This document shows, piece after piece, positions 3,723-59,542 of a stretch of DNA of 64,000 bases. The notes beneath the pieces were generated by a model. That model saw nothing but the letters and a program-made list of their open reading frames with translations, was not told the origin of the DNA and ran no database searches. The stretch spans positions 7,906 to 71,905 of the forward strand of contig CAYOTC010000002.1 in assembly GCA_964406815.1 (NCBI GenBank), written 5' to 3'. Within the stretch, counting starts at the first letter, position 1. Each line of letters opens with the position of its first letter. The DNA comes from an uncultured Bdellovibrionales bacterium. Its GTDB lineage: Bacteria > Patescibacteriota > Minisyncoccia > Moranbacterales > UBA2206. A program made the position numbers and the translations under genes.

Positions 3723-3731
3723 AATAATAAC

Positions 3732-10823: not shown

Positions 10824-10854
10824 AAATTCTTATTACTTCGTGTTTTATTTGATA

Positions 10855-11541: not shown

Positions 11542-11620
11542 AGATGAATTATAACACGGTTTTTATTTTTTATTTTACAAAAATAATAAATTCTAAAATT
11601 TAAAATATGATCTTTTGAGA

Positions 11621-12022: not shown

Positions 12023-12119
12023 AAATTCTTATAACATATATCATATAACATATATCATATAACATATATCATTGTAACACGTAATAAAATATTTTATTTG
12101 TATTTATTAATTTGAAAAA

Positions 12120-13283: not shown

Positions 13284-15648
13284 GCAATTGAGGATCTCTG
13301 TCGATAGTTTTTTTCAATGATTGAACATTAGGATCGGTGCCTGGTGCAGAATTATAAATATATCTAACAATGTTTCTTGCTTTAGTATTGTCCATATTAC
13401 TCACCATCTCTTTGAATTTTCCAATACTAATATTTCTAGCAAAGGATTCTTTATGGAAAGTGCTTACAGTTGAAATGTCAAAATCAGAGAGAGTGTCTTT
13501 ATTTCCTTTTTCATAAATATATTTCTCTAGAGAAGGGTCTATACTGGCTGATAGTTTTCCTGTTGTTGCTGTGTAAGCTCTCTGAACAAATTTAGAAGTT
13601 GAATCTCCTGGAACATTGTATGTACTATTAGAAGCAAGTTTATTCAATGAAATTTCTAGATTATTTTTAAAAGAAGCTCCTTTTTTCTTTAATTTTACAA
13701 TATCATCAATATTTGCAGCATCCTCTTTAGCTACAATTTCCATAAATGCAGCATTTTTATAAGTATCACTTTTATAATTGTCAAGTCTGAATTGACTACT
13801 TTTCACAAAATCTTCCATATGCTTAGTATTGAAATTTATATCTCCAGTTGTTGGATCTGTGTCGATTGTTCCATCTGATTTGAAATTTGCAAAAGCCAAT
13901 TCTGGTCTAATTGATCTTACTTTATAAGCAAGTTGTTTAAATTCTTGAGAAGCTTCTCCAAAGGTTCTTCTGAAATCTTCAAAATCAGTATCTTCTATTA
14001 TGCCATGTTTATCAGCTAATTCTTTAATGGCTGCAGCTCGTGTATATTTATCAGAGCTTGTTGCAAGAGTCTTAAGATCAGATGCCATCTTATTGCTCAT
14101 ATCATTATCATCATAAGCCTCTTTAACTTTCTTGGCATTAAGTTTATCTTGAGCGCCTTTAACTCCCATTCTAGCTGCCAATTTAGCCTCTCTTTCCTCA
14201 GCTCTTTCAGAACCAAGCCAACCTGATTTTTTAAACTGCGCAAAGCGCTGTTTCATTCCGCCCGGAATACCGGTTTTTTTAAATCCCCATGAAGCTAAAG
14301 GTCTTATACCGCCGAGATTTTTGGCGAAAGATTTTCCGTGTTTAGTGACGCTGCCTACGATTGCGCTTGCGCCGATTAGACTGCTTTTTTTAGCTACCAT
14401 CATTCCCATCCAGAGAATAATAACCGGAATGGAAAAATAAGCTGCTGAGCCTATGAGTCTTTGCAGAGAGCTAATTTTAGTATTATCTTCTGCTAAAGAT
14501 GAAAACTGATTTTGTATGCCTGCCATTTCTCCTATTATTTGCAATGAAATAAAAACGAAAAAAAGCATTATCGGTCCGAAAAAAGCGGCATCCATCAATT
14601 TTTTCCACCACTCGCCGGCTTTTCCGGAAAGTTCCGATCCGGGAAGCGTCGGACCGACAAAAGCTATGGGGGAAAAAATAATCAGAATTGCCAATGTGAC
14701 AACTCGGACAAGCAAAAGAAGCGCTAAAACAATAAAAGTCATTGCCAGAATAAATGTGAAAACTATGGAGGCGATTATAAACATAACATCTGGATTGGGT
14801 GTTGTTATAATTTTTTCCATTTCGCTAGCATCCGCTATGTTTGCTAATGTTCCGGTGGGTGATAATTGATTGATGAAAAAATACATAATAACATTAGCAA
14901 CATCGATGATGAAGCGGGTTATGGGATAACTGAAATTAACAAGAAGCGCCATTAGGATGAGGTTGGGAACAACCTTTGACCAATGATATTTATCCACTTG
15001 GAAAACTGTGCAGAAAGCGCTATAGAGAAGAACAAAGATAAAAACAATATTTAGAAAATCTCTGACTAGTGACCATGCAAAGTAAATAGCTTCATTATTT
15101 ATTATGGTGCTTAGGACAGTGGGGTTAATTATGGCATCAAAGATTACCCCAGCAATGCTTAATAAAACTACCACGAAGCTAAGTATGTGAAGAAGTGGGC
15201 ACTTCAGAAGATAATTACCCAGATTTGATATGCCAGAAGGAAGATTAGCACAGACGCTGGTATTATTTTCAACTGCCTTAGACGATCCGGCTCTGTAATG
15301 TTTATCGTGATTTTTAATTTCTGAAGTTGGTTTTATTCCTTGACCTCCATTATTCCAATATTCTATTCCGTCAAACTTAATATGAGGATTGGGAACTGCC
15401 ATATTTGAAAATCCATCGTTGATTTTTTCTTTCTGACAAATTTCATAACATTTTTCTTTGTCGGAAGCTTCTAATGGGTATTTATCGTTATAAAAAACAG
15501 ATTCTTTTGCATATCCAGAGCCTGATCGTCCACAAATACATTCTCCCGCCTGCGCTTTTTCTGCTCCAAATAATCCAAAAAAAGCCGTTATTGCCAAAAC
15601 AAAAACAGCAAAAAGAATAATTGTTTTTAAAAATTGATTATTTTTCAC
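13270..15648 (-). CDS. VirB6/TrbL-like polytopic channel protein with Cys-containing N-terminal ectodomain and long C-terminal soluble domain
   Basis: Signal peptide, 'GECICGRSGSGY', at least 7 TMs in the middle, then a ~330-aa hydrophilic tail. The architecture is typical of Gram-positive VirB6 homologs (e.g. TcpH/PrgH-like). Confidence 0.45.
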   Translation of the reverse strand: MKNNQFLKTIILFAVFVLAITAFFGLFGAEKAQAGECICGRSGSGYAKESVFYNDKYPLEASDKEKCYEICQKEKINDGFSNMAVPNPHIKFDGIEYWNNGGQGIKPTSEIKNHDKHYRAGSSKAVENNTSVCANLPSGISNLGNYLLKCPLLHILSFVVVLLSIAGVIFDAIINPTVLSTIINNEAIYFAWSLVRDFLNIVFIFVLLYSAFCTVFQVDKYHWSKVVPNLILMALLVNFSYPITRFIIDVANVIMYFFINQLSPTGTLANIADASEMEKIITTPNPDVMFIIASIVFTFILAMTFIVLALLLLVRVVTLAILIIFSPIAFVGPTLPGSELSGKAGEWWKKLMDAAFFGPIMLFFVFISLQIIGEMAGIQNQFSSLAEDNTKISSLQRLIGSAAYFSIPVIILWMGMMVAKKSSLIGASAIVGSVTKHGKSFAKNLGGIRPLASWGFKKTGIPGGMKQRFAQFKKSGWLGSERAEEREAKLAARMGVKGAQDKLNAKKVKEAYDDNDMSNKMASDLKTLATSSDKYTRAAAIKELADKHGIIEDTDFEDFRRTFGEASQEFKQLAYKVRSIRPELAFANFKSDGTIDTDPTTGDINFNTKHMEDFVKSSQFRLDNYKSDTYKNAAFMEIVAKEDAANIDDIVKLKKKGASFKNNLEISLNKLASNSTYNVPGDSTSKFVQRAYTATTGKLSASIDPSLEKYIYEKGNKDTLSDFDISTVSTFHKESFARNISIGKFKEMVSNMDNTKARNIVRYIYNSAPGTDPNVQSLKKTIDRDPQLRAYK

Positions 15649-15674
15649 TGGATTTTATTTCTGAAAAACTATAA

Positions 15675-16619
15675 TTATCTTCTATTGGCTGATTGATAGG
15701 CGGCAGATGGTCCATATTGGTTTACGGAATCATTAATATTTTGATTGACGCGACTATTGACAGAGTTTATTTCTTTGTTGATTGATTTTTTCACGTTTCC
15801 AATCCCGGCTTGAACGGATTGGGTGATCATTTGGGAAACTACCGTTGAAATAATTTCTCCCATACTGGTTGCTCCGGCAATAGTTTTGTTTCCCAAATCA
15901 TAGGCATTGACAGTATTGCCATATAAGATTGATCCGGGAATATAAATTTGTCCACTGCCATCTTCATCTCCGCCCCCTTTAAATCCGCTATATGCAACTG
16001 ATTTTGCTTGGGCTATTTCTTTTTCTTCTTCCAAATAGGCATTGTATTTATTTTTTATATAAAAGTCCATCGCCCAAGGATTGTTTACTCCTTCCATGTA
16101 TGAATTAAGCCCGGAAAAGTTATAGTTATTTCCGCTCCTGAACATGCTGTCAGAATTGGAAAAATTTACCTGCAAGGGTTCGTTTTCAGAAGCTGATCCC
16201 TTGGCAATGCCTTCCATTAATTTAAAATAATTACTTCCATTGGCATTTATATAATTAGAACTTCCCTTGCCACCGAGAGTGTAACTTATTTGGTCATTAA
16301 TGTAACGATTCGTTCTTTCAGTTGGTTGATTTATTAAATAATCTTCCCAATTAGTTATGAATTTTGTATCAGAAAGGCTGTTTCCGGAAAGCATACTTTC
16401 AGTTTGTTTAATCATCATATTAGCCGCTTGTTTTTTCTCTACTCCTCTCAGTACTCCATTCATAAGTGACTTTAATTCCTCAACGCCAGCTCCTATGATA
16501 GCTGCCGGGATTGACATCCAAGCATTAGCACATTTTGTAGGAAAAGATGAAAAAATAAAAAACAAGATAAGAAGAATAAAAATCTTTTTTCCAAAAAGTA
16601 ATTTATTTTTTTTAACCAT
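15675..16619 (-). CDS. Secreted hypothetical protein (T4SS locus)
   Basis: N-terminal signal/TM (IFILLILFFIFSSF). Asn/Ser/Gly-rich. Confidence 0.4.
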   Translation of the reverse strand: MVKKNKLLFGKKIFILLILFFIFSSFPTKCANAWMSIPAAIIGAGVEELKSLMNGVLRGVEKKQAANMMIKQTESMLSGNSLSDTKFITNWEDYLINQPTERTNRYINDQISYTLGGKGSSNYINANGSNYFKLMEGIAKGSASENEPLQVNFSNSDSMFRSGNNYNFSGLNSYMEGVNNPWAMDFYIKNKYNAYLEEEKEIAQAKSVAYSGFKGGGDEDGSGQIYIPGSILYGNTVNAYDLGNKTIAGATSMGEIISTVVSQMITQSVQAGIGNVKKSINKEINSVNSRVNQNINDSVNQYGPSAAYQSANRR

Positions 16620-16620
16620 T

Positions 16621-17706
16621 TTATTTGTCTAGATTAATTTGAAAATCTTCTTCTGGGGCAAATAGACCGATATCTTTTAATTTTTTCTTTAAATTTTCAT
16701 CGTATTTCAAATCATATTCACTGAATTTTTGGGTTATCTCTGTTGAATAGTTTAAAATTTCTCCTAGAAGAGCTTCAATTTTTCCATAAGAAATTATTTG
16801 AGAAATAGGATCATCAGTTTTGATTGCTATGTCATTTTTAAGAGAAAGAGAATAATAAGCGAAACGTAATCCCCTGGTGTGTAGTTCAATTAAATCTTCT
16901 GGAACCTCAACTTCTTTCATTTGTTCGATTATTTTTTCAGAATTTTCAGCGAATTCTTTTATTGAATCAGTGTTTCCTGTTGAGATAGCTGAAATAATTT
17001 GATTTGTTGGCTCGGCAAAGAAATTGGAAATATCTGATCCGGAAGTTATCGGTTTGTCAGAATTGCTGGAAAAAATATAATAAATGGCAATTATATAATT
17101 GGTGAAATCTTCTTTCTTCTTTTCTATCTGACGTTCCTTGCTCAGTTTCCCATAATTCTGTTTTTTTATTTTTATATCATCGGTATTTATTTCCGGCATA
17201 TCATCTTCATTTATTTCACTGGAAGATTTTAGGATTTCATCTACTATGGCTTGAGTTTCTTCCAGGGTAATTTCTTGATCCTCAGAATCTTTGCTGCTGG
17301 AAAGAATGCTTATTTTTTCCGCCATTTTCTGGGTAAGATTTTCTTCCGATTCGTAACTGGATTTATTGTTTGTATTTTTTTCATTTTCTATTATTCTATC
17401 CCCCGGAGCGGGAATAGTCGGATTATAACCGCTTTTAACTTCGATTCCATCAGAATAGCTGTCGCTATCGGTGTCGCGATTTTGCGGATCGGTTCCATAT
17501 ATCTTTTCTTCTTCATCAGAAAGCCCATCCTGATCGCTGTCAAGAAAAATACTTTTAGTATTGGTTGAATTTTCTGCGACAGCATAAAAGGAAAAAGTCA
17601 ACGCTAAAAGAAACAGCAACACCAAAAAAGAAAGATTGATATTTTTCATTTTCATATTGAAATAATTATAGCATAATTTTTTCCAATACAAAAATATTTT
17701 ATCCAC
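16621..17706 (-). CDS. Secreted acidic protein with DxDxDG-type Ca-binding motifs
   Basis: Signal peptide, then 'DSDQDGLSDEEEKIYGTDPQNRDTDSDSYSDGIEVKSGYNP' (thrombospondin-type-3 / EF-hand-like Asp repeats). Confidence 0.4.
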   Translation of the reverse strand: MDKIFLYWKKLCYNYFNMKMKNINLSFLVLLFLLALTFSFYAVAENSTNTKSIFLDSDQDGLSDEEEKIYGTDPQNRDTDSDSYSDGIEVKSGYNPTIPAPGDRIIENEKNTNNKSSYESEENLTQKMAEKISILSSSKDSEDQEITLEETQAIVDEILKSSSEINEDDMPEINTDDIKIKKQNYGKLSKERQIEKKKEDFTNYIIAIYYIFSSNSDKPITSGSDISNFFAEPTNQIISAISTGNTDSIKEFAENSEKIIEQMKEVEVPEDLIELHTRGLRFAYYSLSLKNDIAIKTDDPISQIISYGKIEALLGEILNYSTEITQKFSEYDLKYDENLKKKLKDIGLFAPEEDFQINLDK

Positions 17707-21144: not shown

Positions 21145-21226
21145 AATTATTCAATCGATTAGACTCAAGAATATTATAGCGGGAGCAGTAGTTTTTATCC
21201 AGTTAGTTCTAAAAAACATTTTACTT

Positions 21227-21391
21227 GCTTTCTTTGACAGCAAAGAAAGCGAATAGAAAGAAACTGTCGAACAGGCTCGCGCTGGCAGGATTATGACGAT
21301 TACTCACTAAAATTTACATTTCGCTTCGCTACATTTCAAAATTTTTGACGTTCGTAATCTGTAATCCGGAAACACGCTTCGCAAAGTTCGG
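21227..21391. repeat. Composite intergenic repeat, copy 1 (hairpin gctttctttg-acag-caaagaaagc ... acgcttcgcaaagttcgg)
   Basis: Shares the 5' 10-bp-stem hairpin and the 3' 'ACGCTTCGCAAAGTTCGG' end with the copies at 56524 and 58143. Contains a degenerate tgtc...caggattatgaca segment. Confidence 0.55.
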
Positions 21392-21426
21392 AAAAAACTA
21401 CCAATTACAAACTACCAGCTAATAAC

Positions 21427-28040: not shown

Positions 28041-28061
28041 CCCGCAACCATTTTTTGTTTG

Positions 28062-28133
28062 TCTCCTCAGTAGGAATCGAACCTACATCTCATCCTTAGG
28101 ACGGATTTGCTCTATCCATTGAGCTATGAGGAG
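28062..28133 (-). tRNA. tRNA-Arg (anticodon CCT)
   Basis: Manually folded. Acceptor CTCCTCA/TGAGGAG, D-arm GCTCAATGGATAGAGC, anticodon loop GTCCTAA, T-arm GTAGG-TTCGATT-CCTAC, discriminator A. Confidence 0.8.
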
Positions 28134-28165: not shown

Positions 28166-28238
28166 CCTACATCTCATCCTTAGGACGCCTGCCTGCCAGT
28201 AGGCAGGGATTTTCTCTATCCATTGAGTTATAGAAGCT
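28166..28238 (-). pseudogene. Truncated tRNA-Arg(CCT)-like pseudogene carrying a GC-rich hairpin insertion in the anticodon arm
   Basis: The 5' acceptor, D-arm and anticodon loop are near-identical to the adjacent tRNA-Arg. A 20-22 nt insert (gcctgcctgccagtaggcaggg) is present, and the T-arm is replaced by flank sequence. Overlaps the 3' end of the hydrolase ORF. Confidence 0.45.
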
Positions 28239-50259: not shown

Positions 50260-50314
50260 TTGACTAGGCGGGAATTTTAAAATAAGATAAGAAAGTGTTT
50301 TAAAATTTGATTTT

Positions 50315-50389
50315 GGTCGCTTAGCTCAGTTTGGTTAGAGCGTCACATTGACATTGTGAAGGTCAGTGGTTCGAGTCCACTAGTGACCA
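50315..50389 (+). tRNA. tRNA-Val (anticodon GAC)
   Basis: Acceptor GGTCGCT/AGTGACC, D-arm GCTCAGTTTGGTTAGAGC, anticodon loop TTGACAT, T-arm AGTGG-TTCGAGT-CCACT. Confidence 0.85.
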
Positions 50390-50432
50390 CTAGTCAGTTT
50401 ATAAAGTTAAAAGTTCATAAAGTTGGAAGATT

Positions 50433-50777
50433 ATGAAAGCTGAAAGGTTTGAAGATTTATTATTTTGGAAAAAGGCGGAGCAATTAGTGTTATTCATTTA
50501 TAAAGAATTTGGAAAATGCAAGGATTATTCTTTTTGTGATCAAATTAGGCGTGCGAGTGTTTCAGTTATGAATAACATTGCTGAAGGATTCGAAAGAAAA
50601 TCCAATAATGATTTTAAGAATTTCCTTTTTATTGCTAAAGGGTCATGCGGGGAAGTCAGATCTATGCTGTATTTAGCTTTAGAGTTAAAATATATTAATG
50701 AAAGAGAATATAAAGAGTTAAATTTTTTAGCAACAGAAATATCAAAAATGATTTCTGGATTCATAAAGACTTTGTGA
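50433..50777 (+). CDS. Four-helix-bundle protein (23S rRNA intervening-sequence protein family)
   Basis: 'LLFWKKAEQLVLFIYKEF...NNIAEGFERKSNNDFKNFLFIAKGSCGEVRSMLYLA' matches the TIGR02436/PF05635 signature. Sits between two tRNA genes. Confidence 0.65.
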   Translation: MKAERFEDLLFWKKAEQLVLFIYKEFGKCKDYSFCDQIRRASVSVMNNIAEGFERKSNNDFKNFLFIAKGSCGEVRSMLYLALELKYINEREYKELNFLATEISKMISGFIKTL

Positions 50778-50829
50778 ATTTCGTGTACTTTAAAAACTTT
50801 ATGAACATTATTAACTTTTAACTTAATTT

Positions 50830-50901
50830 GGGACCATAGCTCAGCGGTAGAGCAGGCGACTCATAATCGCTTGGTCGCTGGTCCGAATCCAGCTGGTCCC
50901 A
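50830..50901 (+). tRNA. tRNA with CAT anticodon (elongator Met or tRNA-Ile2/lysidine substrate)
   Basis: Acceptor GGGACCA/TGGTCCC, anticodon loop CTCATAA, T-arm GCTGG-TCCGAAT-CCAGC, G1:C72 pair (not an initiator). Confidence 0.8.
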
Positions 50902-50903
50902 CA

Positions 50904-50962
50904 CTCAAAAAATCTTGGCGACTTTTCGCAATCGCTTGGTCGCCCCGCCCGTGGCGGGGCTG
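50904..50962 (+). pseudogene. Partial duplicate of the CAT-tRNA anticodon arm and 3' end
   Basis: ggcgacTTTTCGCAatcgcttggtcgc + CCCGCCCGTGGCGGGG + ctggtcccac: an expanded 10-nt loop, with the T-arm replaced by a GC hairpin. Confidence 0.35.
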
Positions 50963-50974
50963 GTCCCACGAATA

Positions 50975-51010
50975 AAAAGCAAAAAACTCCTGAAAGGAGT
51001 TTTTTGCTTT
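50975..51010 (+). terminator. Intrinsic terminator after the tRNA cluster
   Basis: gcaaaaaactcc-tgaa-aggagttttttgc followed by ttt. Confidence 0.55.
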
Positions 51011-51420
51011 ACTATACTATTATTAAGTTAAAAAATAACGGCATTCAGACTAGATTAGTCTGAATGCCAAAGAAAGTTAACGTAATTCATTGAAATCCTT
51101 ATTCTGACTGTTATCAATTTTTTTTCCGAAAGATGAATGTTTTAAAGAAGAGCTTAAAAAACATAAAAATACACCAATAAGTATTAATAAAATTCTTACA
51201 TCCATTTTTTACCCCCTTTAAATTTAATTTGGAAAAAACTAAATCCCTGAATACATATATTCTAGCATAGATTTTTGTCAGATTGCATCATTGCAAAATA
51301 ATAAGAGTATGCCAAAGTGTTTTAATGTTATATTATTAACAAATTCAGTACTATTAAAAACTTAATAATCAATATAAGATATAAAATTAAAAAACCTTTA
51401 AATTATGGGAGGATGGGAAG

Positions 51421-52077
51421 ATGGATTTAGAGATGAAAATAAGGATCGCTATTGTTGTGATAGCTGTTGTGTCCATTGGGGCCTTATATTTTTTGCGAGA
51501 CAGCAATTATGCCTTTTGCAAGAAATATAGAGAAAAAAGATTTTTAATGATTTCAATAAAAATCATATGCACAGTAGCTGTATTGGGCGCAGCGTCAATA
51601 TTGCTCAGGGAAATATATTTAAAAAGAGATAGGATTGAGAATTTAATAGCTTCAAGTGAAAAAACTGAATCTACCGACAGCACTGCAGAAAAACCGGATT
51701 CTATTGAAAAAGGAAAAGAGATTAAAAATCCGATAGCTTCGAGTGAAAAAATCAAACTAGATGACAGCACTAGAAAAATATTTGAGTCTATCTTGGAAGA
51801 TAATATTAGGCTGAAAAAAAACTTGCAGTTAGCTTTTTCTGAGAATATTGGTGATTTAAAGGCTGTAATATTGGAAAACGGCAAAATCATTAAAAGTTTT
51901 GAAAATGATTTTATAATTCTGGAAAAGGAAGAGAAAAAAGTGAAGGATACTTTTGTTTTAGGTAAAATTGCTCATTTGAAAAAAAATATAAAAGAAACGC
52001 TGCCGGCTCTTTATGCGCTGGACACTACCTTGAATAGAAAAGTGGAATTATTATCAAAGGAAAAAACAGCGAAATAG
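51421..52077 (+). CDS. Membrane-anchored hypothetical protein, paralog A of a tandem duplication
   Basis: 2 TMs; 'ALYFLRDSNYAFCKKYREKRFLM' parallels paralog B's 'LLYVFLRYADFSFCKKLRKSNFLM'. Confidence 0.45.
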   Translation: MDLEMKIRIAIVVIAVVSIGALYFLRDSNYAFCKKYREKRFLMISIKIICTVAVLGAASILLREIYLKRDRIENLIASSEKTESTDSTAEKPDSIEKGKEIKNPIASSEKIKLDDSTRKIFESILEDNIRLKKNLQLAFSENIGDLKAVILENGKIIKSFENDFIILEKEEKKVKDTFVLGKIAHLKKNIKETLPALYALDTTLNRKVELLSKEKTAK

Positions 52078-52260
52078 GATTATTTCCTAAAAAGAGAAAA
52101 ATTAAAAAGCCAATGCGAAAAATCGCGGAGGCTTTTTATTTTTTCCTTATTTATCTGGAAAAATTGACAAAATAGCTTGGGCGCTTTAGACTGTTTTAAT
52201 GTTATATTATTAACAAAATTTAGTACTATTAAAAACTTAATATTTTTCGGGGAGGGTGAA

Positions 52261-52734
52261 ATGGAATATTGGGCAAAATCAATTATTATGGGTGCGATGG
52301 CTATTACATTTGCATTGCTATATGTTTTTTTACGATATGCAGATTTTTCTTTTTGCAAAAAATTGAGAAAAAGTAATTTCTTGATGAATGTGATAATAAT
52401 TCTTTCAGTCGCATCTTTTCTGGGTATTGCAATATTTCAACTTAAGGATCCGTCGCTGGATAAAACAGAAAGTTTTCCTATGAGGAAAATCGCAGTTATC
52501 AAGATGTTGGAAGACGAGATTGCGGTAAATAAAAATAGTTACGATTGGTTTGTTAGTCAGAAAAATGCACCTTATGTTGGTGTCGAGCTGAAAAATATAA
52601 AGGCGGCAAAGACTTATAGGGAGGATATGGAAAGCGGAATGAATAGTTGTATCAAGCTGGAAAAATCATATAAAAAAATTCTGGAATCATTGGAAAAATC
52701 CAAAGAAAAGTCTGTTTCCATATTGATAGAATAA
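52261..52734 (+). CDS. Membrane-anchored hypothetical protein, paralog B
   Basis: Start at 'MEYWAKS' after RBS ggggagggtgaa. Same N-terminal architecture as paralog A. Confidence 0.45.
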   Translation: MEYWAKSIIMGAMAITFALLYVFLRYADFSFCKKLRKSNFLMNVIIILSVASFLGIAIFQLKDPSLDKTESFPMRKIAVIKMLEDEIAVNKNSYDWFVSQKNAPYVGVELKNIKAAKTYREDMESGMNSCIKLEKSYKKILESLEKSKEKSVSILIE

Positions 52735-52916
52735 TAATATCTTCCGATGAAAAATTAAGAAGCCAATGTGAAAAAAAATCGCATTGGCTTCTGTTATTTT
52801 AGTAATAAGATTGACAGGGATTAAAAATAAGTGTATGATTGTAAGACAAATAAATGCGCAGCTCAAAGGGCGTATTTTTTGTTGGTCGATTAACAAACCC
52901 ATAATTTTGAAAAACT

Positions 52917-53231
52917 ATGATGATCCTATTTTTCGTAGGAGTCATAGAAATGATGATTGTCACGCTTTGGACAAGAGTTGTCACCAAAAGCCAAGTTCTT
53001 ATGAGCGGCACGGTGACTATGGTCAACATCCTTATCTGGTATTATGTTTTGGATAAGATTGTAAATGACATTTCCAATTGGAAATTGGTCCTGCTCTATG
53101 CTCTGGGATGTTCCATCGGAACTTCGCTGAGCACCTATATCTATAAGATTCTGGAAGACAGGGAAGCGGCCAAAAAGGAAGAAGAAGCGGAAGTGGCTCT
53201 TGATGGAGAGCCGGCTCAAATAGAGGCCTAA
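52917..53231 (+). CDS. Small membrane protein with acidic C-terminal tail, hypothetical
   Basis: 3 TMs plus 'EDREAAKKEEEAEVALDGEPAQIEA'. Confidence 0.3.
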   Translation: MMILFFVGVIEMMIVTLWTRVVTKSQVLMSGTVTMVNILIWYYVLDKIVNDISNWKLVLLYALGCSIGTSLSTYIYKILEDREAAKKEEEAEVALDGEPAQIEA

Positions 53232-53424
53232 TCATCATTCGTTTCTATTTTTTACCTAAAAAATGGAAGAAGACTCTCAACCGTAAAAACCGTCTATCGC
53301 GAGCGACAAGGCGGTTTTTACTTTTTTGACTTTTTTTAGGAAATCCCGTAAAATCAAATATCATTAAAATTGTTAGTAACTTAAAAATATATATAAATTC
53401 TTTGAAAGGAGGCAAAGGGGAAAG

Positions 53425-54282
53425 ATGAAAAAAGAAAAGAAATTGGAAATTTTTGTATTCGGATGGATTTTTATTGTTATTCTTATTCTTTTAGGTGGAA
53501 TATATAAAGAAACGATAGGATCTGATCAAGTAAAATCTGACGAAGTGGCCTATCAGCAACAAATTGAAGAAGCTCTTAAAAATCGACAAAATAAATATAT
53601 TGACCAACTATATGAAGGAGTAGATTTTAAGACGAAGGCTAATGAATTTGTTATGAACTTTCCTGATTCAATTGATAGAGTGAAAGTTGTAAAATTCATT
53701 GAAAAGAACGCGAATGATGTGATAATCCATATAAGGCAGATACATTTTTCTCCGAACGATTATGATTTTGAAGAAGTTAATCAAACAAATCAGGTCCAAG
53801 ATAATATATATGAAATTGTGATGTGGCTTCATAAGAATTATGGTTTGAAGTATATTTTCGGAGAGGGACGTTATGGGGATGTGCAGGATAAATTTGAAAA
53901 GGAAAAAAATGATAATCAAATGATAGATGAATTTTATAGCAGCAGTGATATTGATTTGAAAAATAATCTTAAGGAAAATTGGTTTGAGATGGTCAATTCA
54001 AAGGAGGAATTAAGAATCCTTTCAAAAGAACTTGAATTTGAAAAAGACCCTCTTCAAAGAGCAGATATTCTGGTTGATATTGAAAGAACTAAGATTGATG
54101 CTGAAAAATCTGAAAGTCTTTTCATTTTAAACAGAAACATATTATTTTTGAGGTATGAAATTACCGAGAGATTATTGAATGAAAAAATTGTTTCTGTGAA
54201 ACCGGCAGAAATAGAGTTTTTCTATAATCGGGCTAGTGCGGTCGATGAAAAAATTAGGTCCTTCTTATGGAAAGGGAAATGA
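53425..54282 (+). CDS. N-terminally anchored hypothetical protein
   Basis: SD aaggaggcaaagggg, one TM, soluble domain. Confidence 0.4.
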   Translation: MKKEKKLEIFVFGWIFIVILILLGGIYKETIGSDQVKSDEVAYQQQIEEALKNRQNKYIDQLYEGVDFKTKANEFVMNFPDSIDRVKVVKFIEKNANDVIIHIRQIHFSPNDYDFEEVNQTNQVQDNIYEIVMWLHKNYGLKYIFGEGRYGDVQDKFEKEKNDNQMIDEFYSSSDIDLKNNLKENWFEMVNSKEELRILSKELEFEKDPLQRADILVDIERTKIDAEKSESLFILNRNILFLRYEITERLLNEKIVSVKPAEIEFFYNRASAVDEKIRSFLWKGK

Positions 54283-54505
54283 TTTTCTGGATTCGGTTCA
54301 TGATAAAGCTGTTATGGAAGATAGGGAAAATGCAGCTATACAACTTATGGCTGATGATGATGGCTTTGTTCCGAAAGTAATAGTTTTCGGAGGAGCACAC
54401 AATTTTCATGATAATATTATTGATTGGAATGATAAAAACAAAAAGAAATTTTCTTTAATTGTCATTACTCCAATAAAATACGAAGAAGCGAATAAAAAAA
54501 AATAA
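54236..54505 (+). CDS. Possible frameshifted continuation of the upstream gene
   Basis: Overlaps the upstream ORF by 47 nt in the +1 frame. Confidence 0.2.
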   Translation: MRSMKKLGPSYGKGNDFLDSVHDKAVMEDRENAAIQLMADDDGFVPKVIVFGGAHNFHDNIIDWNDKNKKKFSLIVITPIKYEEANKKK

Positions 54506-54663
54506 ACTAAAAGACCAAAAACGGCAAAGCTGTTTTTGGTCTTTTATTATTTTTCCCAAATTGACACAAAAGGCTTTTTACGCTAGAGTGGTTGGAAGTT
54601 CTTAAGGCTATCAGTCAAAATTTTGACTGTAAATATTTCACAAATTTATATTAGAGGAGGCAA

Positions 54664-55027
54664 GATGCCAAAAAAATTATTAGTACGAGTTGTTTCAGGA
54701 AGTATTTTGCTTGGGATTAGTATACTTTTTTTGTTATTTTTTGCGGGAGGAATATATGGATCAATAGGTGCGATTATTTTACTTGTTGGTGGTAGACTGT
54801 CAATTCTTAATGCAAAAAAAGTTGGAGAATATGATTTAAAGAATGAATTGGTAAAGTACATAAAAATTCCTGAGGTTGAAGGTGATCTGGTTGTGGGATT
54901 TTCCGCCGATGCATTTTTTAGGGACGGGAAAATTGTATCAATAAAACCGATTGATACAAAAAATTATGTTTTCAGAAATCCGAATGAAAAAGATTATTCT
55001 GATCATGATGATGAGATGACTAGCTGA
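54664..55027 (+). CDS. Small membrane protein, hypothetical
   Basis: Start 'MPKKLL' after SD ttagaggaggcaag; 2 TMs plus a soluble C-terminus. Confidence 0.4.
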
Positions 55028-55029
55028 AA

Positions 55030-55076
55030 AGAGCCAATCGATAGTCGCGACTGTCGATTGGCTCTTATATTTTTTA
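55030..55076. terminator. Bidirectional terminator between convergent genes
   Basis: agagccaatcgatagtcgc-gactgtcgattggctct with T-runs on both sides. Confidence 0.5.
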
Positions 55077-55082
55077 AATTCT

Positions 55083-55490
55083 TCAAAGAAGTTCCCCAAG
55101 TTTTTTCAGGAACTTCCTTTTTGTTATGAAGATATAGGCCGCCAAAGAAACAATAGCGATTATCCATAATGTGCTTATAGTAATTCTTGGTATGTTTATT
55201 TCAGCTTCTGCCAATAATTCACTTACATAACATGAAACGAAAAGTGTGAATAATAATATCTCATAAATGAAGATCGTTTTGCTAGTTGATCTTTTCAAAT
55301 TCCAGTTGATTATTCTTATTAAAACTCCGATGTAGGTAACTGTTGCTAAAAATCCAAAAATTGTCCATTCGAAATAATTAGTTTTCTCATTCATCATTGT
55401 TGCTGCCACTATAAACATTGGTAATAAGTAACGAATATTTTTCTCCGCTGAATCCAATAGTTTAAGAAATAATTGCTTCATTACTTCCAT
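55083..55490 (-). CDS. Polytopic membrane protein, hypothetical
   Basis: 4 TMs. Confidence 0.4.
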   Translation of the reverse strand: MEVMKQLFLKLLDSAEKNIRYLLPMFIVAATMMNEKTNYFEWTIFGFLATVTYIGVLIRIINWNLKRSTSKTIFIYEILLFTLFVSCYVSELLAEAEINIPRITISTLWIIAIVSLAAYIFITKRKFLKKLGELL

Positions 55491-55542
55491 ATCTTCCTCC
55501 TCTATAATTATTTTGTTTTTAAAATGCTATTAATTATCTATT

Positions 55543-56487
55543 TTAATTTTTTCTTCTTTTACTATGAAAAGCTTTGTGGACTTCTTTGAGTTGTTTGTTG
55601 GTGACATGGGTATATATCTGAGTAGTGGTGATTGATGAATGGCCAAGCATGGCCTGGACGCTTCTGATATCGGCGCCGTTCATCAATAAATCAGTCGCGA
55701 AAGAATGACGAAGCGTATGCGGATGGACATTTTTCACGATACCGGCCTTGGTCGCGTAATATTTGACGATTCTTTGAATTGAACGGGGAGTGAGGCGCAA
55801 ATCACTTCTCTTGTTTTTTGTCTGGCTATTTTTTGATTCGAACTTTTCCAAAGCTTTCTGATTTCTCACAAAAAGTGCTGGGTCAACATCAGTTCTTTTG
55901 GATAAATAACCTTCCAAAGCTTTTTTGGCGTCATCGGAAATAAAAACCACCCGGACTTTTCCGCCTTTCCCGCGGATGCTAAGTTCGAGATGATTAAGGT
56001 CGATGCGATCTCTATTGATGCTAGTCAGTTCCGAAACACGAAGTCCGGCTGAGAATAGAAGTTCCAAAATAGCCCGATCCCGAAGTGATTTCAAATCTGA
56101 TCCGGAGGCAGCTTCGAAAATTCGCTCCACCTCGTCATTTTCCAAAAATTCCACTTCCCGTTCCGGAGTTTTTCCGATTTCCACCCTTTCAGCCGGCAGA
56201 GCTTCAATATCTTTTTTGGCTAGGAATTTCAAAAAACTCCGAATAGCAATGACATAATATCCCTGGGTAGCCTTTTTGAGGTTTTTGCCGTTCTTGTCTT
56301 CATAACGGTTAAGAAATATGCGGAAGTTCTTAACGAGATTATCTTTAATTTCATGAGCAGTCTTGATTTTCGCCCAATTCAAAAAGACTTCCAGATAATG
56401 GTCATAGTTCTCGATAGTCTTTTGCGACCGACCTTTCTCAATTTCCATGTACTCGAGGAATTCGGTTTTGAGTTCTCTGATGTTCAT
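55543..56487 (-). CDS. xerD: Tyrosine site-specific recombinase (XerC/XerD-type integrase)
   Basis: 'RDRAILELLFSAGLRVSEL', 'HPHTLRHSFATDLLMNGADIRSVQAMLGHSSITTTQIYTHV' (R..HxxR..Y catalytic set), and an N-terminal SAM-like domain. Confidence 0.8.
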   Translation of the reverse strand: MNIRELKTEFLEYMEIEKGRSQKTIENYDHYLEVFLNWAKIKTAHEIKDNLVKNFRIFLNRYEDKNGKNLKKATQGYYVIAIRSFLKFLAKKDIEALPAERVEIGKTPEREVEFLENDEVERIFEAASGSDLKSLRDRAILELLFSAGLRVSELTSINRDRIDLNHLELSIRGKGGKVRVVFISDDAKKALEGYLSKRTDVDPALFVRNQKALEKFESKNSQTKNKRSDLRLTPRSIQRIVKYYATKAGIVKNVHPHTLRHSFATDLLMNGADIRSVQAMLGHSSITTTQIYTHVTNKQLKEVHKAFHSKRRKN

Positions 56488-56523
56488 GTATTTATTTTAC
56501 AACAAAATAGCTAAATATATTAG

Positions 56524-56682
56524 CCCCCTTTCTTTGGTAGCAAAGAAAGGGGGCGGAAAAGTTGCTGTCCGCACGGAATTATAGAACATAATTTATTGTC
56601 ATTCTGGCCTCCGAGCCGGAATCTAGAAAATATAGATCCTAAAACAAGTTCAGGATGACAGAATATACTTCGCAAAGTTCGG
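56524..56682. repeat. Composite intergenic repeat, copy 2, with embedded MITE-like element
   Basis: ccccctttctttg-gtagc-aaagaaaggggg ... ctgtccgcacggaattatagaa ... [MITE] ... acttcgcaaagttcgg. Confidence 0.55.
56597..56660. mobile_element. MITE-like palindromic element, intergenic copy C
   Basis: tgtcattctgg...ccggaatct...gatcctaaaacaagttcaggatgaca; shares termini and internal hairpins with the two copies inside uvrD. Confidence 0.6.
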
Positions 56683-57043
56683 TATTAAATACAAAATATA
56701 AAATAAAAAATTAGGCTTCATTAAGCCTTTTTTAAGATTATTGATTGACGAAGAGGGTATTTTTGACTATACTGTATGCAAGTTAAATTTTTAAGGCTTT
56801 CGACTGGAATGCCGACATATCCTAGAGAAAATCTAGGATTTTTATAGGCAAAATCCGGTTAAAGCCACAAGAAAGGCTTATTATATTAGTAAATTAATCT
56901 ATTCTCTGACACAGACCCTTATAGGACGCGCCAATCTGAAAAAACTGATCTTCCGTATATATGAAAAACAAAGAAATATAGTAGGGTTTATCAAGGAGCA
57001 TAGGACTATAAAAGTACTCCACGTTTTTCGCAACTATTCTTCA

Positions 57044-58066: not shown

Positions 58067-58142
58067 ATATTTAGAAAACTTGAATATAAAAAATAGGCAC
58101 GTCTCGCAACGCGAGAGACGGCCTTTTTTGTTTTTCTTTACT

Positions 58143-58352
58143 AACTTTTCTTGTCAGCAAGAAAAGTTACAAAAGAACTGTCCGCACGAATTCGCTCAGT
58201 ATAAATTTTCGCTCATTCGTTCAAAATCCAGGTTGTTCCTTCGGCAACAAGACCGGATTTTTTCACTCATTCGCTCAATTTATAAACCTCGCGAATTAAG
58301 TGCGGAATTATAGAATGCAAATTCTGGTTCTAGAAATACGCTTCGCAAAGTT
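58143..58352. repeat. Composite intergenic repeat, copy 3 (longest; internal ~95-nt insert bounded by ccgcacgaattcgc/gcgaattaagtgcgg)
   Basis: aacttttcttg-tcagc-aagaaaagtt ... ctgtccgcacg ... gtgcggaattatagaatgcaaattctggttctagaaatacgcttcgcaaagtt. Contains a UUCG-capped hairpin atccaggttgttcc-ttcg-gcaacaagaccggat. Confidence 0.55.
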
Positions 58353-58381
58353 AGAGATAATATACAAAAAATAATATGTCT

Positions 58382-59542
58382 CTAATTGCTATCCAATGAG
58401 TCAGGAATAAATCCATTTTCTCTTAGAGTATGTATCATTCCGCGAAGAAGATAATTATTTGCGAAACCAATAGTATAAATTCTACCATTTTCTTTAAGTG
58501 GTATGAGCATTGATTTATCCTTCAGTCTTTTTAATATTCTAGAGCGTTGTTGCGGAGATTCTTCTCCAAGAATTTTTTCAAGATCTACTGATTTTATAGT
58601 CATTTCTTGATTTTTAATAATAGCAGAAAGAATCTGGTATTCGCGTTTTGTTATATGTTCTCGCTCTAGAGAATATGAGAGCATTGGCAATAAAATTACA
58701 TTGATTATATAACGCAAATCAAGAAGGTTATCTATTTTTTCTATTTCAGTTCGTAATCCTTCAAGAACATACAAGCACCATTTTAAAACATTGTCCTCTT
58801 GTTCTGAATCAGCTAAGGAAAGCATTTTATAATATTTATTGCGATCCATGCAAAATATTGCTGTTGGATTTAATATTCTTCCACTCTTTACTTGAAAGCT
58901 TTGTTTTATAAGAAGTGCATATGTAAACATTCTTACAAGTCTGCCATTTCCATTATCAAAGGGATGTATCCATGCCATTTTATGGTGAGATAGGGCAATT
59001 GCTAGCAAGTGATATTGTGTATCAAGTGGTTGATTAACAAATTCCATAAGTTCATCAAATAATTCTGGAACCTTAATCGATTCTGGAGGAATATGATTTG
59101 ATTTTTTTATAGATACGTTTATTGGTCGTAATATTCCGGGATATCGAGAGCCCTCTCCTGTAGGTGGGGGCGTTAGGTTATTAACAAGTATTTTATGTAT
59201 TTCTGAAATAAGAGCTCTGTCAAACTTGGTTTTTTTATTTACATTTCTATCAATAAAATCGATTGCTTTATCTATATTTTCAATCTCTTTAAATTTTTCA
59301 TCCACAACAATTTTCTTTGATCTATTTTCAATAACCTTTTCAATATATTCAGCTAATGTTGTGTTATTGCCCTCTATTCTTGCAGATCCTAGACTTTCTA
59401 GCATTTGAAATATATCTTTTATTTGAAAAAAGACATGAGGAGAAACTGGTCCGCCTAATTTTTTAACTCGAAGTTTTTCTAGCTCAAAAATTACACTAGT
59501 AAGCTTGCTGCCATATTTAGGGTCATAAATTTTTATGGACAT
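58382..59542 (-). CDS. fic: Fic/DOC-family protein (AMPylator-like)
   Basis: Canonical Fic motif 'HPFDNGNGRLVRM' (HPFx[DE]GNGR). Confidence 0.8.
   Translation of the reverse strand: MSIKIYDPKYGSKLTSVIFELEKLRVKKLGGPVSPHVFFQIKDIFQMLESLGSARIEGNNTTLAEYIEKVIENRSKKIVVDEKFKEIENIDKAIDFIDRNVNKKTKFDRALISEIHKILVNNLTPPPTGEGSRYPGILRPINVSIKKSNHIPPESIKVPELFDELMEFVNQPLDTQYHLLAIALSHHKMAWIHPFDNGNGRLVRMFTYALLIKQSFQVKSGRILNPTAIFCMDRNKYYKMLSLADSEQEDNVLKWCLYVLEGLRTEIEKIDNLLDLRYIINVILLPMLSYSLEREHITKREYQILSAIIKNQEMTIKSVDLEKILGEESPQQRSRILKRLKDKSMLIPLKENGRIYTIGFANNYLLRGMIHTLRENGFIPDSLDSN

What the first reader, a model, noticed from the sequence alone, without database searches (positions are those of the whole stretch)
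50300..56700. A 6-kb interval between tRNA genes and a tyrosine recombinase looks like an integrated island of small membrane-protein genes
tRNA-Val(GAC) and a CAT-anticodon tRNA, plus a partial duplicate of that tRNA's 3' region (a typical att-site scar), lie at the left. A XerC/D-type recombinase followed by a composite repeat lies at the right. In between are a four-helix-bundle (23S IVS-family) protein wedged between the tRNAs, a tandemly duplicated membrane-protein cassette, and five further small membrane or anchored ORFs. None of these has a recognisable function. The 'tRNA, partial tRNA repeat, cargo, integrase' layout is the classic genomic-island signature. The cargo, made entirely of small membrane proteins, could be an uncharacterised defense, exclusion or host-interaction module.
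Basis: inference. Interest (0 to 1): 0.55.

Follow-up and report, generated by a model that had tools for sequence, protein, structure and literature searches.

The report
Strain-variable gene patch beside tRNA genes
The interval is a real strain-variable patch of orphan membrane-protein genes next to two tRNA genes in a Moranbacteria (CPR) genome. It was built piecemeal and swapped by ordinary recombination, and the neighbouring recombinase is a housekeeping Xer, so this is not one mobile island carried by that enzyme.

Summary
tRNA-Val(GAC), a 23S-IVS-family gene, tRNA-Met(CAT), a partial copy of that tRNA's 3' half, paralogous membrane genes D/E, further small membrane ORFs and a Xer-type recombinase are all present.

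The "tRNA, att scar, cargo, integrase" reading is only partly right. The recombinase is a core gene. It is 50-75% identical across CPR and sits in the conserved order S15-UvrD-LysM/CHAP-Xer-[tRNA pair]-DUF7544-FtsH-TilS. No second tRNA fragment closes the cargo. Similar partial tRNA copies flank many CPR tRNAs.

Relatives have only 215-412 nt, holding the two tRNAs, where this genome has 5.3 kb. One relative (L084) carries a serine-recombinase element at the same tRNA-Met, so the site is a hotspot.

A sister strain has 95-97% identical flanks but a highly divergent block from tRNA-Val to mid-xer (dS 0.04 rising to 0.7 or more). It lacks the G/H cassette, which here sits exactly between one gene's terminator and the next gene's promoter.

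The cargo genes are orphans. D/E and G have no homologue in searches of 1.84 and 5.8 billion proteins, respectively. None hits PADLOC, and the structure models are unusable.

Verdict: a flexible genomic island of a known kind, with cargo of unknown function.

The parts
50315..50390 (+). tRNA-Val(GAC). This is the left homology anchor of the variable block: identity to the sister strain (97%) ends at nt 18 of this tRNA (window 50332).
50396..50827 (+). Hairpin-bracketed cassette in the tRNA-Val/tRNA-Met spacer. The stem arms lie at about 50396-50424 and 50794-50827 and enclose the four-helix-bundle (23S rRNA IVS-protein family) ORF 50433-50777. In relatives this spacer is only 2-45 nt.
   Evidence: (I8)
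50830..50902 (+). tRNA-Met(CAT). The T loop reads TCCGAAT, against TTCGAAT in relatives. The cargo begins just downstream of its 3' end.
50918..50969 (+). Partial copy of the tRNA-Met 3' half, from the anticodon stem to the acceptor 3' strand. The anticodon loop is altered and the T arm is replaced by the GC-rich hairpin CCCCGCC-CGT-GGCGGGG. This is the most GC-rich stretch of the window.
50976..51069 (.). Two terminator-like hairpins. The first is bidirectional (50976-51010). The second (51039-51069) is on the minus strand, downstream of s42.
51077..51205 (-). s42: a 42-aa ORF with one TM segment and a strong GGGGG Shine-Dalgarno sequence. It is a singleton in the protein collection.
51318..52153 (+). 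Cassette D. It comprises a conserved 50-nt upstream element (51318-51367), a 218-aa ORF with 2 TM segments (51421-52077) and a terminator (52088-52153).
52192..52792 (+). Cassette E, a tandem paralogue of D (36% aa identity). It has the same 50-nt upstream element (52192-52242), a 157-aa ORF with 2 TM segments (52261-52734) and a terminator (52758-52792).
52917..53231 (+). F: a short stand-alone DUF5698 membrane protein. Its GC3 of 0.51 is the highest in the window. It is 95% identical over 86 aa in the sister strain (dN/dS about 0.14), and the family is common in CPR.
53326..54555 (+). G/H cassette, with its own promoter-like site, SD sequence, ORF and terminator (54508-54546). It encodes a 359-aa N-terminally anchored protein that is split into 53425-54282 and 54236-54505 by a 1-nt frameshift at A6 (54247-54252). 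It is absent from sister strain L161, where the F terminator abuts the I promoter.
54665..55027 (+). I: a 120-aa protein with 2 TM segments and a small C-terminal domain. It is only 31-37% identical to its counterpart in the sister strain.
55029..55066 (.). Bidirectional terminator hairpin between the convergent genes I and J. It is conserved in L161.
   Evidence: (I25)
55083..55490 (-). J: a 135-aa polytopic membrane protein, co-oriented with xer and 52 nt downstream of it. It is 56% identical in the sister strain and has no other homologue.
55543..56487 (-). Housekeeping Xer-type tyrosine recombinase. The right edge of the divergent block falls inside the gene at about 55927. Codons 1-185 have dS 0.30 and codons 186-314 have dS about 2.4.
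56515..56710 (.). It has the hairpin CTTTCTTTG-n4-CAAAGAAAG, a variable middle and a conserved CTTCGCAAAGTTCGG end.
   Evidence: (D1)

Best explanation
The interval is a flexible (strain-variable) genomic island in a Candidatus Moranbacteria genome. It occupies a recombination hotspot between a conserved tRNA-Val/tRNA-Met pair and a housekeeping xer gene. It is not one integrase-borne element.

The content appears to have been assembled and reshuffled by several ordinary routes.
1. **Allelic exchange (shown).** Divergent versions of the whole block are exchanged by homologous recombination. The crossovers lie in the conserved flanks, tRNA-Val on the left and the 5' two-thirds of xer on the right.
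2. **Cassette gain or loss (shown for G/H).** Single self-contained gene cassettes (promoter, Shine-Dalgarno sequence, ORF, terminator) are gained or lost at terminator/promoter junctions.
3. **Tandem duplication (shown).** D and E are a tandem duplicate.
4. **Insertion in the tRNA spacer (shown by comparison with relatives).** A hairpin-bracketed four-helix-bundle gene is inserted between the two tRNAs.
5. **Past activity at the tRNAs (inferred).** This is inferred from the tRNA-fragment scar here and from a serine-recombinase element at the same tRNA-Met in a relative.

The cargo encodes small membrane or membrane-anchored proteins that are orphans. Two of them, I and J, diverge far faster than their neighbours. 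I infer that they are dispensable envelope proteins under relaxed or diversifying selection. Their biochemical function is not shown.
For: **Xer is a core gene**
- It has 80 genome and 80 metagenome orthologues at 50-75% identity.
- It sits in the fixed order S15-UvrD-LysM/CHAP-Xer-tRNAs-DUF7544-FtsH-TilS in Moranbacteria, and next to S15 in other CPR.
- It scores best against the XerC, XerD and XerA models.

**The site is variable**
- The Xer-DUF7544 distance is 215-940 nt in many relatives, 2.1-3.2 kb with unrelated genes in others, and 5.3 kb here.
- The tRNA pair is present in most Moranbacteria relatives (one member or both were not detected in a few loci), but its order and orientation flip.
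- L084 carries a 5-kb element at the tRNA-Met 3' end, encoding a large serine recombinase, an Mrr-like nuclease and other genes.

**Sister strain from sample SRR8925779**
- The left flank is 97% DNA-identical up to nt 18 of tRNA-Val.
- The right flank is 91-99% identical from 56687 onward.
- Between these flanks, the xer 3' third is 49-86% identical and J is 65-70% identical. Protein I is 31-37% identical.
- dS is 0.036 for DUF7544, 0.74 for F, 1.18 for J, about 2.4 for the Xer C-terminal part, 0.30 for the Xer N-terminal part and 0.22 for LysM/CHAP.

**Cassette structure**
- The G/H cassette lies exactly between the F terminator and the I promoter. These two abut in L161.
- There are 14 terminator-like hairpins in the interval against 3.6 expected.

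**The cargo genes are orphans**
- G and J find only themselves among 5.8 billion proteins.
- The D/E profile finds only D and E among 1.84 billion representatives.
- The eight queried genes found in the collection are all singleton clusters.
Against: - The polarity of the changes (gain here or loss in relatives) rests on parsimony across MAGs that are at most 75% identical in Xer, plus one fragmentary sister strain.
- The sister-strain contigs break between tRNA-Val and F, so it is unknown whether IVP, tRNA-Met, the scar, D and E are present there.
- The partial tRNA-Met copy and the serine-recombinase element in L084 keep open a single old integration followed by decay.
- No function has been demonstrated for any cargo protein. 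Diversifying selection cannot be separated from relaxed constraint, because synonymous sites are saturated.
Confidence: 0.68

Rival explanations
1. A classical tRNA-integrated island. One element integrated into the 3' end of tRNA-Met, then lost its own integrase and distal att site. What remains is the cargo and a proximal scar.
For: - The cargo starts directly after the tRNA-Met 3' end. The partial copy begins exactly at the anticodon stem, which is where tyrosine-integrase att identity blocks typically start.
- Empty-site relatives exist.
- L084 carries a recombinase-bearing element at the same tRNA.
Against: - No distal repeat exists. The best match scores 21, within the range of shuffled controls (mean 17.6, maximum 23).
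- The scar lies about 15 nt from the tRNA, so it brackets nothing.
- No recombinase remnant was found by tblastn with the L084 serine recombinase.
- G/H differs from the sister strain as a single cassette.
- F belongs to a family that sits in housekeeping neighbourhoods in other Moranbacteria.
- Composition is ordinary.
- Partial tRNA copies occur at 15 or more other tRNA genes in these CPR loci, without islands.
Confidence: 0.15
2. Xer-dependent capture. The adjacent Xer itself inserts cassettes at a nearby dif-like or attC-like site, as in IMEX elements or integrons.
For: - The cargo abuts xer.
- Each gene is followed by an imperfect palindrome.
- The protein exceeds the NCBIfam cut-off for 'XerA / integron integrase' (244 bits against a cut-off of 220).
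Against: - No dif-like CATAA-N6-TTATG site occurs near xer.
- The hairpins share no common core and read as ordinary terminators with T runs.
- The cassettes carry their own promoters and SD sequences.
- The array is convergent with xer, whereas an integron array diverges from the integrase promoter side.
- Relatives with the same Xer have no cassettes.
Confidence: 0.04
3. An ancestral region with no acquisition. The genes are old and fast-evolving, and they were lost independently in the sampled relatives.
For: - F, I and J are shared with the sister strain, so part of the block predates that split.
- Composition matches the genome.
Against: - About 40 Moranbacteria loci lack every cargo gene and carry different genes or nothing at the site.
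- D, E and G have no detectable homologue anywhere.
- G/H sits as an insertion between a terminator and a promoter that are contiguous in L161.
Confidence: 0.1

Closest known systems
Flexible genomic islands or hypervariable regions of bacterial populations, of the additive type next to tRNA genes and the replacement type exchanged through conserved flanks. This concept comes from population genomics and is cited from my own knowledge.
   Same: - The chromosomal position is fixed between conserved core genes.
- Gene content differs between close strains.
- Synonymous divergence jumps inside the block relative to the flanks.
- The block is adjacent to tRNA genes.
- The products are membrane or envelope-type proteins.
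   Different: - The island is very small (about 5 kb).
- The cargo is almost entirely orphan genes with no glycosyltransferase or transporter content.
- The host is an ultra-small CPR bacterium, where such islands are little documented.
tRNA-targeting integrative elements or genomic islands with a tyrosine or large serine recombinase. The element in relative L084 is an example.
   Same: The cargo is inserted immediately 3' of tRNA-Met, a tRNA fragment scar is present, and relatives have empty sites.
   Different: There is no element-encoded recombinase, no bracketing repeats and no sign of unit mobility. The adjacent recombinase is the core Xer.
23S rRNA intervening sequences that encode PF05635 four-helix-bundle proteins, homologues of the DGR protein Avd (PMC10053308).
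   Same: ORF 50433-50777 is a full-length PF05635 member. It is enclosed by a long stem formed by the ends of the insert, inside a stable-RNA transcription unit.
   Different: - The host site is a tRNA-tRNA spacer, not 23S rRNA.
- No reverse transcriptase or template repeat was noticed in the flanking ORFs or repeat listings (no dedicated search was run).
- The Avd equivalog score is 22 bits against a cut-off of 80.

Membership tests
Integrase-borne tRNA genomic island | Inserted at the 3' end of a tRNA gene | tested here: met
   The cargo begins after tRNA-Met 50830-50902. In L004 the same tRNA end lies about 4 nt from the xer stop.
Integrase-borne tRNA genomic island | Direct repeats (attL/attR) derived from the tRNA bracket the whole cargo | tested here: not met
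   The only extra copy is at 50918-50969, about 15 nt after the tRNA. There is no copy elsewhere. The best local match scores 21, against a shuffle maximum of 23.
Integrase-borne tRNA genomic island | An element-encoded integrase that travels with the cargo | tested here: not met
   Xer is present in conserved synteny in about 40 Moranbacteria loci that lack the cargo. Its 5' two-thirds are part of the 87-100% identical flank. No serine-recombinase remnant was found.
Integrase-borne tRNA genomic island | Absent from related genomes (empty site) | tested here: met
   Gaps of 215-412 nt in L003, L004, L005, L006, L008 and L009 hold only the tRNA pair.
Integrase-borne tRNA genomic island | Composition deviates from the host genome | tested here: not met
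   Cargo gene GC is 0.29-0.33, against 0.345 +/- 0.04 for all genes in the window. Only F is an outlier, with GC 0.43 and GC3 0.51.
Flexible genomic island (strain-variable locus between conserved flanks) | Same position and different content in closely related strains | tested here: met
   The sister strain (L161/L166) has 95-97% identical flanks and lacks G/H. Outside the block it also lacks the Fic gene. The part of its locus between tRNA-Val and F was not assembled.
Flexible genomic island (strain-variable locus between conserved flanks) | Divergence inside the block far exceeds that of the flanks | tested here: met
   dS is 0.036 in the left flank and 0.22-0.30 in the right flank, against 0.74 to more than 2 inside the block. 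The identity profile agrees.
Housekeeping XerC/D-type recombinase | SAM-like N-terminal domain plus tyrosine-recombinase catalytic domain, with orthologues conserved across the lineage | tested here: met
   Pfam PF02899 plus PF00589. XerC, XerD and XerA models score E 1e-72 to 1e-74. There are 160 orthologous loci. R, HxxR, H and Y motifs are visible in the translated sequence.
Housekeeping XerC/D-type recombinase | A cognate dif site | tested here: inconclusive
   There is no classical CATAA-N6-TTATG site near xer. The CPR dif sequence is unknown and the window covers only 64 kb.
Integron | Promoterless cassettes ending in attC sites with conserved cores, arrayed from attI beside intI | tested here: not met
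   The cassettes have their own promoter-like sites, SD sequences and dissimilar terminator hairpins. The array is convergent with xer.
Known anti-phage defence systems (PADLOC-DB 2.0) | Cargo proteins match defence-system models | tested here: not met
   There are no hits for IVP, s42, D, E, F, H, I or J. G has only a chance-level Cas11a match (E 0.002, no stretch passing). Only the Fic gene, outside the interval, matches SoFic at 3e-41.
23S rRNA IVS protein / four-helix-bundle family (PF05635, TIGR02436) | Full-length match above the curated cut-off | tested here: met
   PF05635 scores 126.8 bits against a cut-off of 33.8. TIGR02436 scores 117.5 bits against a cut-off of 24.
DGR accessory protein Avd | Match to the Avd equivalog and an adjacent reverse transcriptase with template and variable repeats | tested here: not met
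   NF033474 scores 22.4 bits against a cut-off of 80. No RT-like ORF or TR/VR repeat was noticed in 49-59 kb in the ORF and repeat listings.

The most novel reading that the evidence does not exclude
Two readings remain open.

1. The orphan membrane proteins (D/E, G/H, I, J, s42) could be a CPR-specific envelope module under diversifying selection, acting in host-cell attachment or phage or competitor exclusion. Strains would swap it through the tRNA-Val and xer flanks.

2. The GC-rich hairpins embedded in tRNA pseudo-copies could be footprints of an undescribed small mobile palindrome or miniature integrative element that targets tRNA genes in AT-rich CPR genomes. They occur here at tRNA-Met and tRNA-Arg, and in relatives at tRNA-Val, tRNA-Met and tRNA-Pro.
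Probability: 0.12. Interest if true: 0.6.

Novelty: new member of a known kind. Interest (0 to 1): 0.3.

Why it matters
- **Annotation.** A recombinase next to a tRNA and unknown genes is easily called an island with its integrase. Here the enzyme is the chromosome's own Xer, and the variable DNA was built and exchanged by other routes.
- **CPR biology.** The locus is a small, well-delimited example of strain-level flexible gene content in an ultra-small genome. Its content is almost entirely membrane proteins with no homologues. Such loci are natural places to look for host-interface or exclusion functions.
- **Limits.** Nothing here makes a function testable yet, and the architecture fits known concepts.

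Tried and rejected
- **attR search.** Exact and mismatch searches plus local alignment for a distal tRNA-Met fragment found nothing above shuffled controls.
- **dif-like site.** A search for a classical dif-like site near xer found none.
- **Family libraries.** Pfam, NCBIfam, PHROGs and PADLOC gave nothing for D, E, H, I, J or s42, even with Pfam at E <= 10. The only G hit is a chance-level Cas11a match.
- **PDB sequence search.** The fused G/H protein gave no meaningful hit.
- **TIKI/ChaN/TraB idea.** From memory, G/H seemed to resemble this superfamily through GxxH-like motifs. No family hit supports this, and the AlphaFold2 model is unusable (mean pLDDT 38.9). I dropped the idea.
- **AlphaFold2 of D.** With the D/E alignment, only the N-terminal TM hairpin is modelled, at pLDDT about 70 (mean 48.3). 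I did not run fold searches, because low-confidence models give meaningless matches.
- **Large protein searches.** G and J against the 5.8-billion collection, and the D/E profile against 1.84 billion representatives, returned only the queries themselves.
- **Viral contigs.** Scans with G and D found no relatives.
- **Serine-recombinase remnants.** None were found in the window.
- **Rfam.** Only the two tRNAs are credible matches in 49-59.8 kb.
- **Exact-protein look-ups.** The source contig was not found through Xer or G.
- **Metagenome scan with Xer.** It gave no relative closer than 73%. The sister strain was found only indirectly, through the F homologue P0009 and a DUF7544 cluster member.

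Full report
**1. What is there**

ARAGORN and Rfam place tRNA-Val(GAC) at 50315-50390 and tRNA-Met(CAT) at 50830-50902.

About 15 nt after tRNA-Met lies a partial copy of its 3' half, at roughly 50918-50969 (its two exact blocks begin 28 nt after the tRNA).
- Two blocks are exact, AATCGCTTGGTCGC and GCTGGTCCCAC. Each occurs twice where 0.28 and 0.12 matches are expected by chance.
- In the copy, the anticodon loop is altered.
- The T arm is replaced by a GC-rich hairpin. This is the most GC-rich stretch of the 64-kb window and the only such stretch outside coding sequence.

The gene content of the interval is as follows.

| Gene | Coordinates | Description |
|---|---|---|
| IVP | 50433-50777 | Full-length 23S-rRNA-IVS / four-helix-bundle protein (PF05635, E 5e-37) |
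| s42 | 51077-51205 (-) | 42 aa, 1 TM segment |
| D | 51421-52077 | 218 aa, 2 TM segments |
| E | 52261-52734 | 157 aa, 2 TM segments |
| F | 52917-53231 | DUF5698 |
| G | 53425-54282 | N-terminal membrane anchor |
| I | 54665-55027 | 120 aa, 2 TM segments |
| J | 55083-55490 (-) | 135 aa, polytopic |
| Xer | 55543-56487 (-) | SAM-like plus tyrosine-recombinase domains; best matches XerC, XerD and XerA |

- D and E are 36% identical paralogues. They share a 50-nt upstream element that is 96-100% identical.
- G and the following ORF (to 54505) are one 359-aa gene. It is broken by a single-base frameshift in an A6 run at 54247-54252.
- Most cargo ORFs are preceded by a GGAGG-type Shine-Dalgarno sequence, as read. 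F has none and IVP's is weak.
- The interval holds 14 terminator-like hairpins against 3.6 expected. The genes are therefore separate transcription units.

**2. The recombinase is a core gene**

- Searching one genome per species returned 80 orthologous loci. L001-L024 are nearly all Moranbacteria-type (labelled Moranbacteria or Parcubacteria; a few carry other labels), at 63-75% identity, and the rest are other CPR at 50-58%. A metagenome scan returned 80 more.
- tblastn of the window's proteins against these loci shows a fixed backbone in Moranbacteria: S15-UvrD-LysM/CHAP-Xer-[gap]-DUF7544-FtsH-TilS. In many other CPR, S15 lies next to Xer.
- None of the cargo genes hits any of these 160 loci.

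**3. The site is a hotspot with empty variants**

- The tRNA-Val/tRNA-Met pair sits in the gap in most Moranbacteria relatives; in a few loci one member or both were not detected. The two tRNAs are only 2-45 nt apart in most relatives, and their order and orientation flip.
- In L003, L004, L005, L006, L008 and L009 the whole Xer-DUF7544 distance is 215-412 nt. In L004 the tRNA-Met 3' end lies about 4 nt from the xer stop.
- Other relatives carry 2-3 kb of unrelated genes there, including a small conserved membrane protein and some long unrelated ORFs.
- L084 has 5.4 kb between tRNA-Met and DUF7544.
  - It encodes a 520-aa large serine recombinase (Resolvase, Recombinase and Zn-ribbon domains) whose 3' end overlaps the tRNA's 3' half.
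  - It also encodes a DUF5677 protein, an Mrr-like nuclease and a Topo-type zinc-ribbon protein.
- A homologous recombinase overlaps tRNA-His next to xer in L125.
- The window has no remnant of such a recombinase.

**4. Why this is not a unit island**

- No second tRNA-derived repeat closes the cargo. The best local match (52167-52184) scores 21, against a shuffle mean of 17.6 and a maximum of 23.
- The partial copy brackets only a short spacer of about 15-28 nt.
- Partial tRNA copies within a few hundred nt of the parent tRNA are frequent in these CPR loci. At least 15 tRNA genes show one at E < 1e-3.
  - One is tRNA-Arg(CCT) elsewhere in this window. Its pseudo-copy also carries a GC hairpin.
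  - The scar is therefore not specific evidence for the 4.6-kb cargo.
- Cargo GC is 0.29-0.33, inside the window's gene distribution of 0.345 +/- 0.04. Only F stands out, with GC3 of 0.51.
- F belongs to a family of short stand-alone DUF5698 proteins that is common in CPR (72 hits). In other Moranbacteria it lies near gyrB.

**5. A sister strain defines the block**

The sister strain was found through the 95%-identical F homologue P0009 and a DUF7544 cluster member. Two contigs from one sample (SRR8925779) were recovered.

- **Left flank.** L166 is 97% DNA-identical to the window across FtsH-DUF7544, up to nt 18 of tRNA-Val (window 50332). It then shows a tRNA-Val 5' fragment, GC-rich hairpins and a second, slightly different tRNA-Val. 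The contig ends there.
- **Right side.** L161 reads F'-I'-J'-Xer'-LysM/CHAP-...-UvrD.
- **Identity profile.**

| Window segment | DNA identity to L161 |
|---|---|
| LysM/CHAP and its upstream region (from 56687) | 91-99% |
| xer 5' part (55927-56426) | 87-100% |
| xer 3' third (55543-55926) | 49-86% |
| J | 65-70% |

- **Protein identity.** I is 31-37% identical to its counterpart and J is 56% identical.
- **Nei-Gojobori estimates.**

| Gene or segment | dS | Notes |
|---|---|---|
| DUF7544 | 0.036 | left flank |
| LysM/CHAP | 0.22 | right flank |
| Xer codons 1-185 | 0.30 | right flank |
| Xer codons 186-314 | about 2.4 | inside block |
| F | 0.74 | dN/dS about 0.14, so F is under purifying selection |
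| J | 1.18 | dN 0.29 |
| I | saturated | dN 0.81 |

- The block from about 50332 to 55926 is therefore much older than its flanks. This is the signature of allelic replacement by homologous recombination, with crossovers in tRNA-Val and inside xer.

**6. Cassette-level change**

- In L161, the F terminator is directly followed by the I promoter.
- In the window, the same two sequences are separated by about 1.2 kb (53326-54555). This segment holds G/H with its own promoter-like site, SD sequence and terminator. The junctions fall in T runs.
- The Fic gene at 58382-59542 lies outside the interval and matches PADLOC SoFic at 3e-41. It is likewise absent from L161 and from the 23 Moranbacteria-type loci that span the LysM/CHAP-UvrD junction.

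**7. Function of the cargo**

- G and J find only themselves among 5.8 billion proteins.
- The D/E profile finds only D and E among 1.84 billion cluster representatives.
- All eight queried genes that are in the collection are singleton clusters.
- There are no meaningful Pfam, NCBIfam, PHROG, PADLOC or PDB-sequence hits.
- The AlphaFold2 models are unusable, with mean pLDDT of 38.9 for G/H and 48.3 for D.
- What can be said: these are real genes with SD sequences and long ORFs in an AT-rich genome, and F is under purifying selection. They encode membrane or membrane-anchored proteins. I and J diverge much faster than the neighbouring F and Xer within the same block.
- A role at the cell envelope under relaxed or diversifying selection is an inference. 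A defence role has no support.

**8. Comparison with known systems, and verdict**

- The locus behaves like a flexible genomic island. That concept covers additive change next to tRNAs and replacement through conserved flanks, and I cite it from my own knowledge.
- It fails three of the five defining features I tested for an integrase-borne tRNA island: bracketing att repeats, its own integrase and deviant composition.
- It does not fit an integron or a Xer-exploiting element.
- It is a new member of a known kind, in a little-studied lineage.
- Interest is modest. The side observations in section 9 are the more unusual leads.

**9. Side observations**

- **IVP cassette.** The IVP gene is enclosed by a long stem formed by the ends of the tRNA spacer. 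A second IVP gene, in L052, is bracketed by a 34-nt inverted repeat between xer and tRNA-Arg.
- **Dispersed repeat.** A repeat family with a terminator-like hairpin has three copies in the window and one upstream of xer in L161.
- **GC-rich hairpins.** They recur inside pseudo-tRNA fragments and inside that repeat.

Noticed in passing
window 58382-59542 (-), flanks 58130-58385: A Fic-domain gene matches the PADLOC SoFic model (E 3e-41). It lies between LysM/CHAP and UvrD. It is absent from the Moranbacteria relatives that span this junction and from the sister strain L161, which has about 525 nt of other sequence there. It is followed by copy B of the dispersed repeat.
   Followed up: partly
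window 56515-56710, 58130-58385, 21215-21400; L161 2545-2790: A dispersed intergenic repeat family. Its conserved hairpin CTTTCTTTG-n4-CAAAGAAAG reads as a terminator on the minus strand. The middle is variable and the end CTTCGCAAAGTTCGG is conserved. It has no Rfam match. It could be a MITE/REP-like element or an unknown small RNA.
   Followed up: partly
window 50396-50827; L052 10887-11330: The four-helix-bundle (23S IVS-protein family) gene is enclosed by a long stem within the tRNA-Val/tRNA-Met spacer. A second example in an Uhrbacteria locus is bracketed by a 34-nt inverted repeat between xer and tRNA-Arg. These look like IVS-like cassettes in tRNA contexts rather than in 23S rRNA.
   Followed up: partly
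window 28166-28227 (upstream of tRNA-Arg(cct) 28061-28133); L166 2148-2205; L162 5250-5820; L035 15850-16150: Pseudo-copies of tRNA halves lie beside the parent tRNA. Short GC-rich hairpins such as CCTGCC-n-GGCAGG and TCCGCC-n-GGCGGA are inserted in them or replace arms. At least 15 tRNA genes in the fetched CPR loci have such nearby partial copies. The origin is unexplained. They could be mini mobile palindromes, att remnants of miniature elements, or processing signals.
   Followed up: partly
L162 5299-5365 and 5528-5594; also L163-L165, L016 12765-12816, L119, L108, L093, L092, L010, L071 19540-19708: A conserved, structured element of about 70 nt (GAAAGGGGTCGGGAAAAC...GGAAG.ATTGAAACC..AAGGTTTCAAG) lies next to tRNA-Met genes in several CPR lineages. 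In some cases it is followed by a 15-16-nt copy of that tRNA's 3' end. It has no Rfam match.
   Followed up: partly
L023 about 11000-11330 (reverse-complement view): The tRNA-Met at the same locus appears to be split by an insertion of about 320 nt in the anticodon-loop region. This may be an intron. ARAGORN does not call the gene.
   Followed up: no
L084 11101-16200; L125 11643-13184: These are small integrated elements whose large serine recombinase ORF ends inside the 3' half of a tRNA gene, tRNA-Met in L084 and tRNA-His in L125. The L084 cargo includes an Mrr-like nuclease and a DUF5677 protein.
   Followed up: partly
window 50883-50889: The tRNA-Met T loop reads TCCGAAT, where relatives have TTCGAAT. 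This puts C at the normally invariant U55 position. It could be a real variant or an assembly error.
   Followed up: no
window 51077-51205 (-) and 50976-51039: s42 is a 42-aa hydrophobic peptide with a charged tail, a strong SD sequence and its own terminator. A weak, sub-threshold Rfam match to ohsC, a type I antitoxin sRNA, overlaps the adjacent hairpin (E 0.33). A type I toxin-like gene is possible but unsupported.
   Followed up: no
window 54247-54252: An A6 run causes the G/H frameshift. Deleting one A restores a 359-aa ORF. This could be a pseudogene, an assembly error or a slippage-prone phase-variable site.
   Followed up: partly
window 1-17700: A long run of mostly minus-strand genes includes ORFs of 810, 792 and 614 aa and many small membrane ORFs. 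I did not examine it.
   Followed up: no
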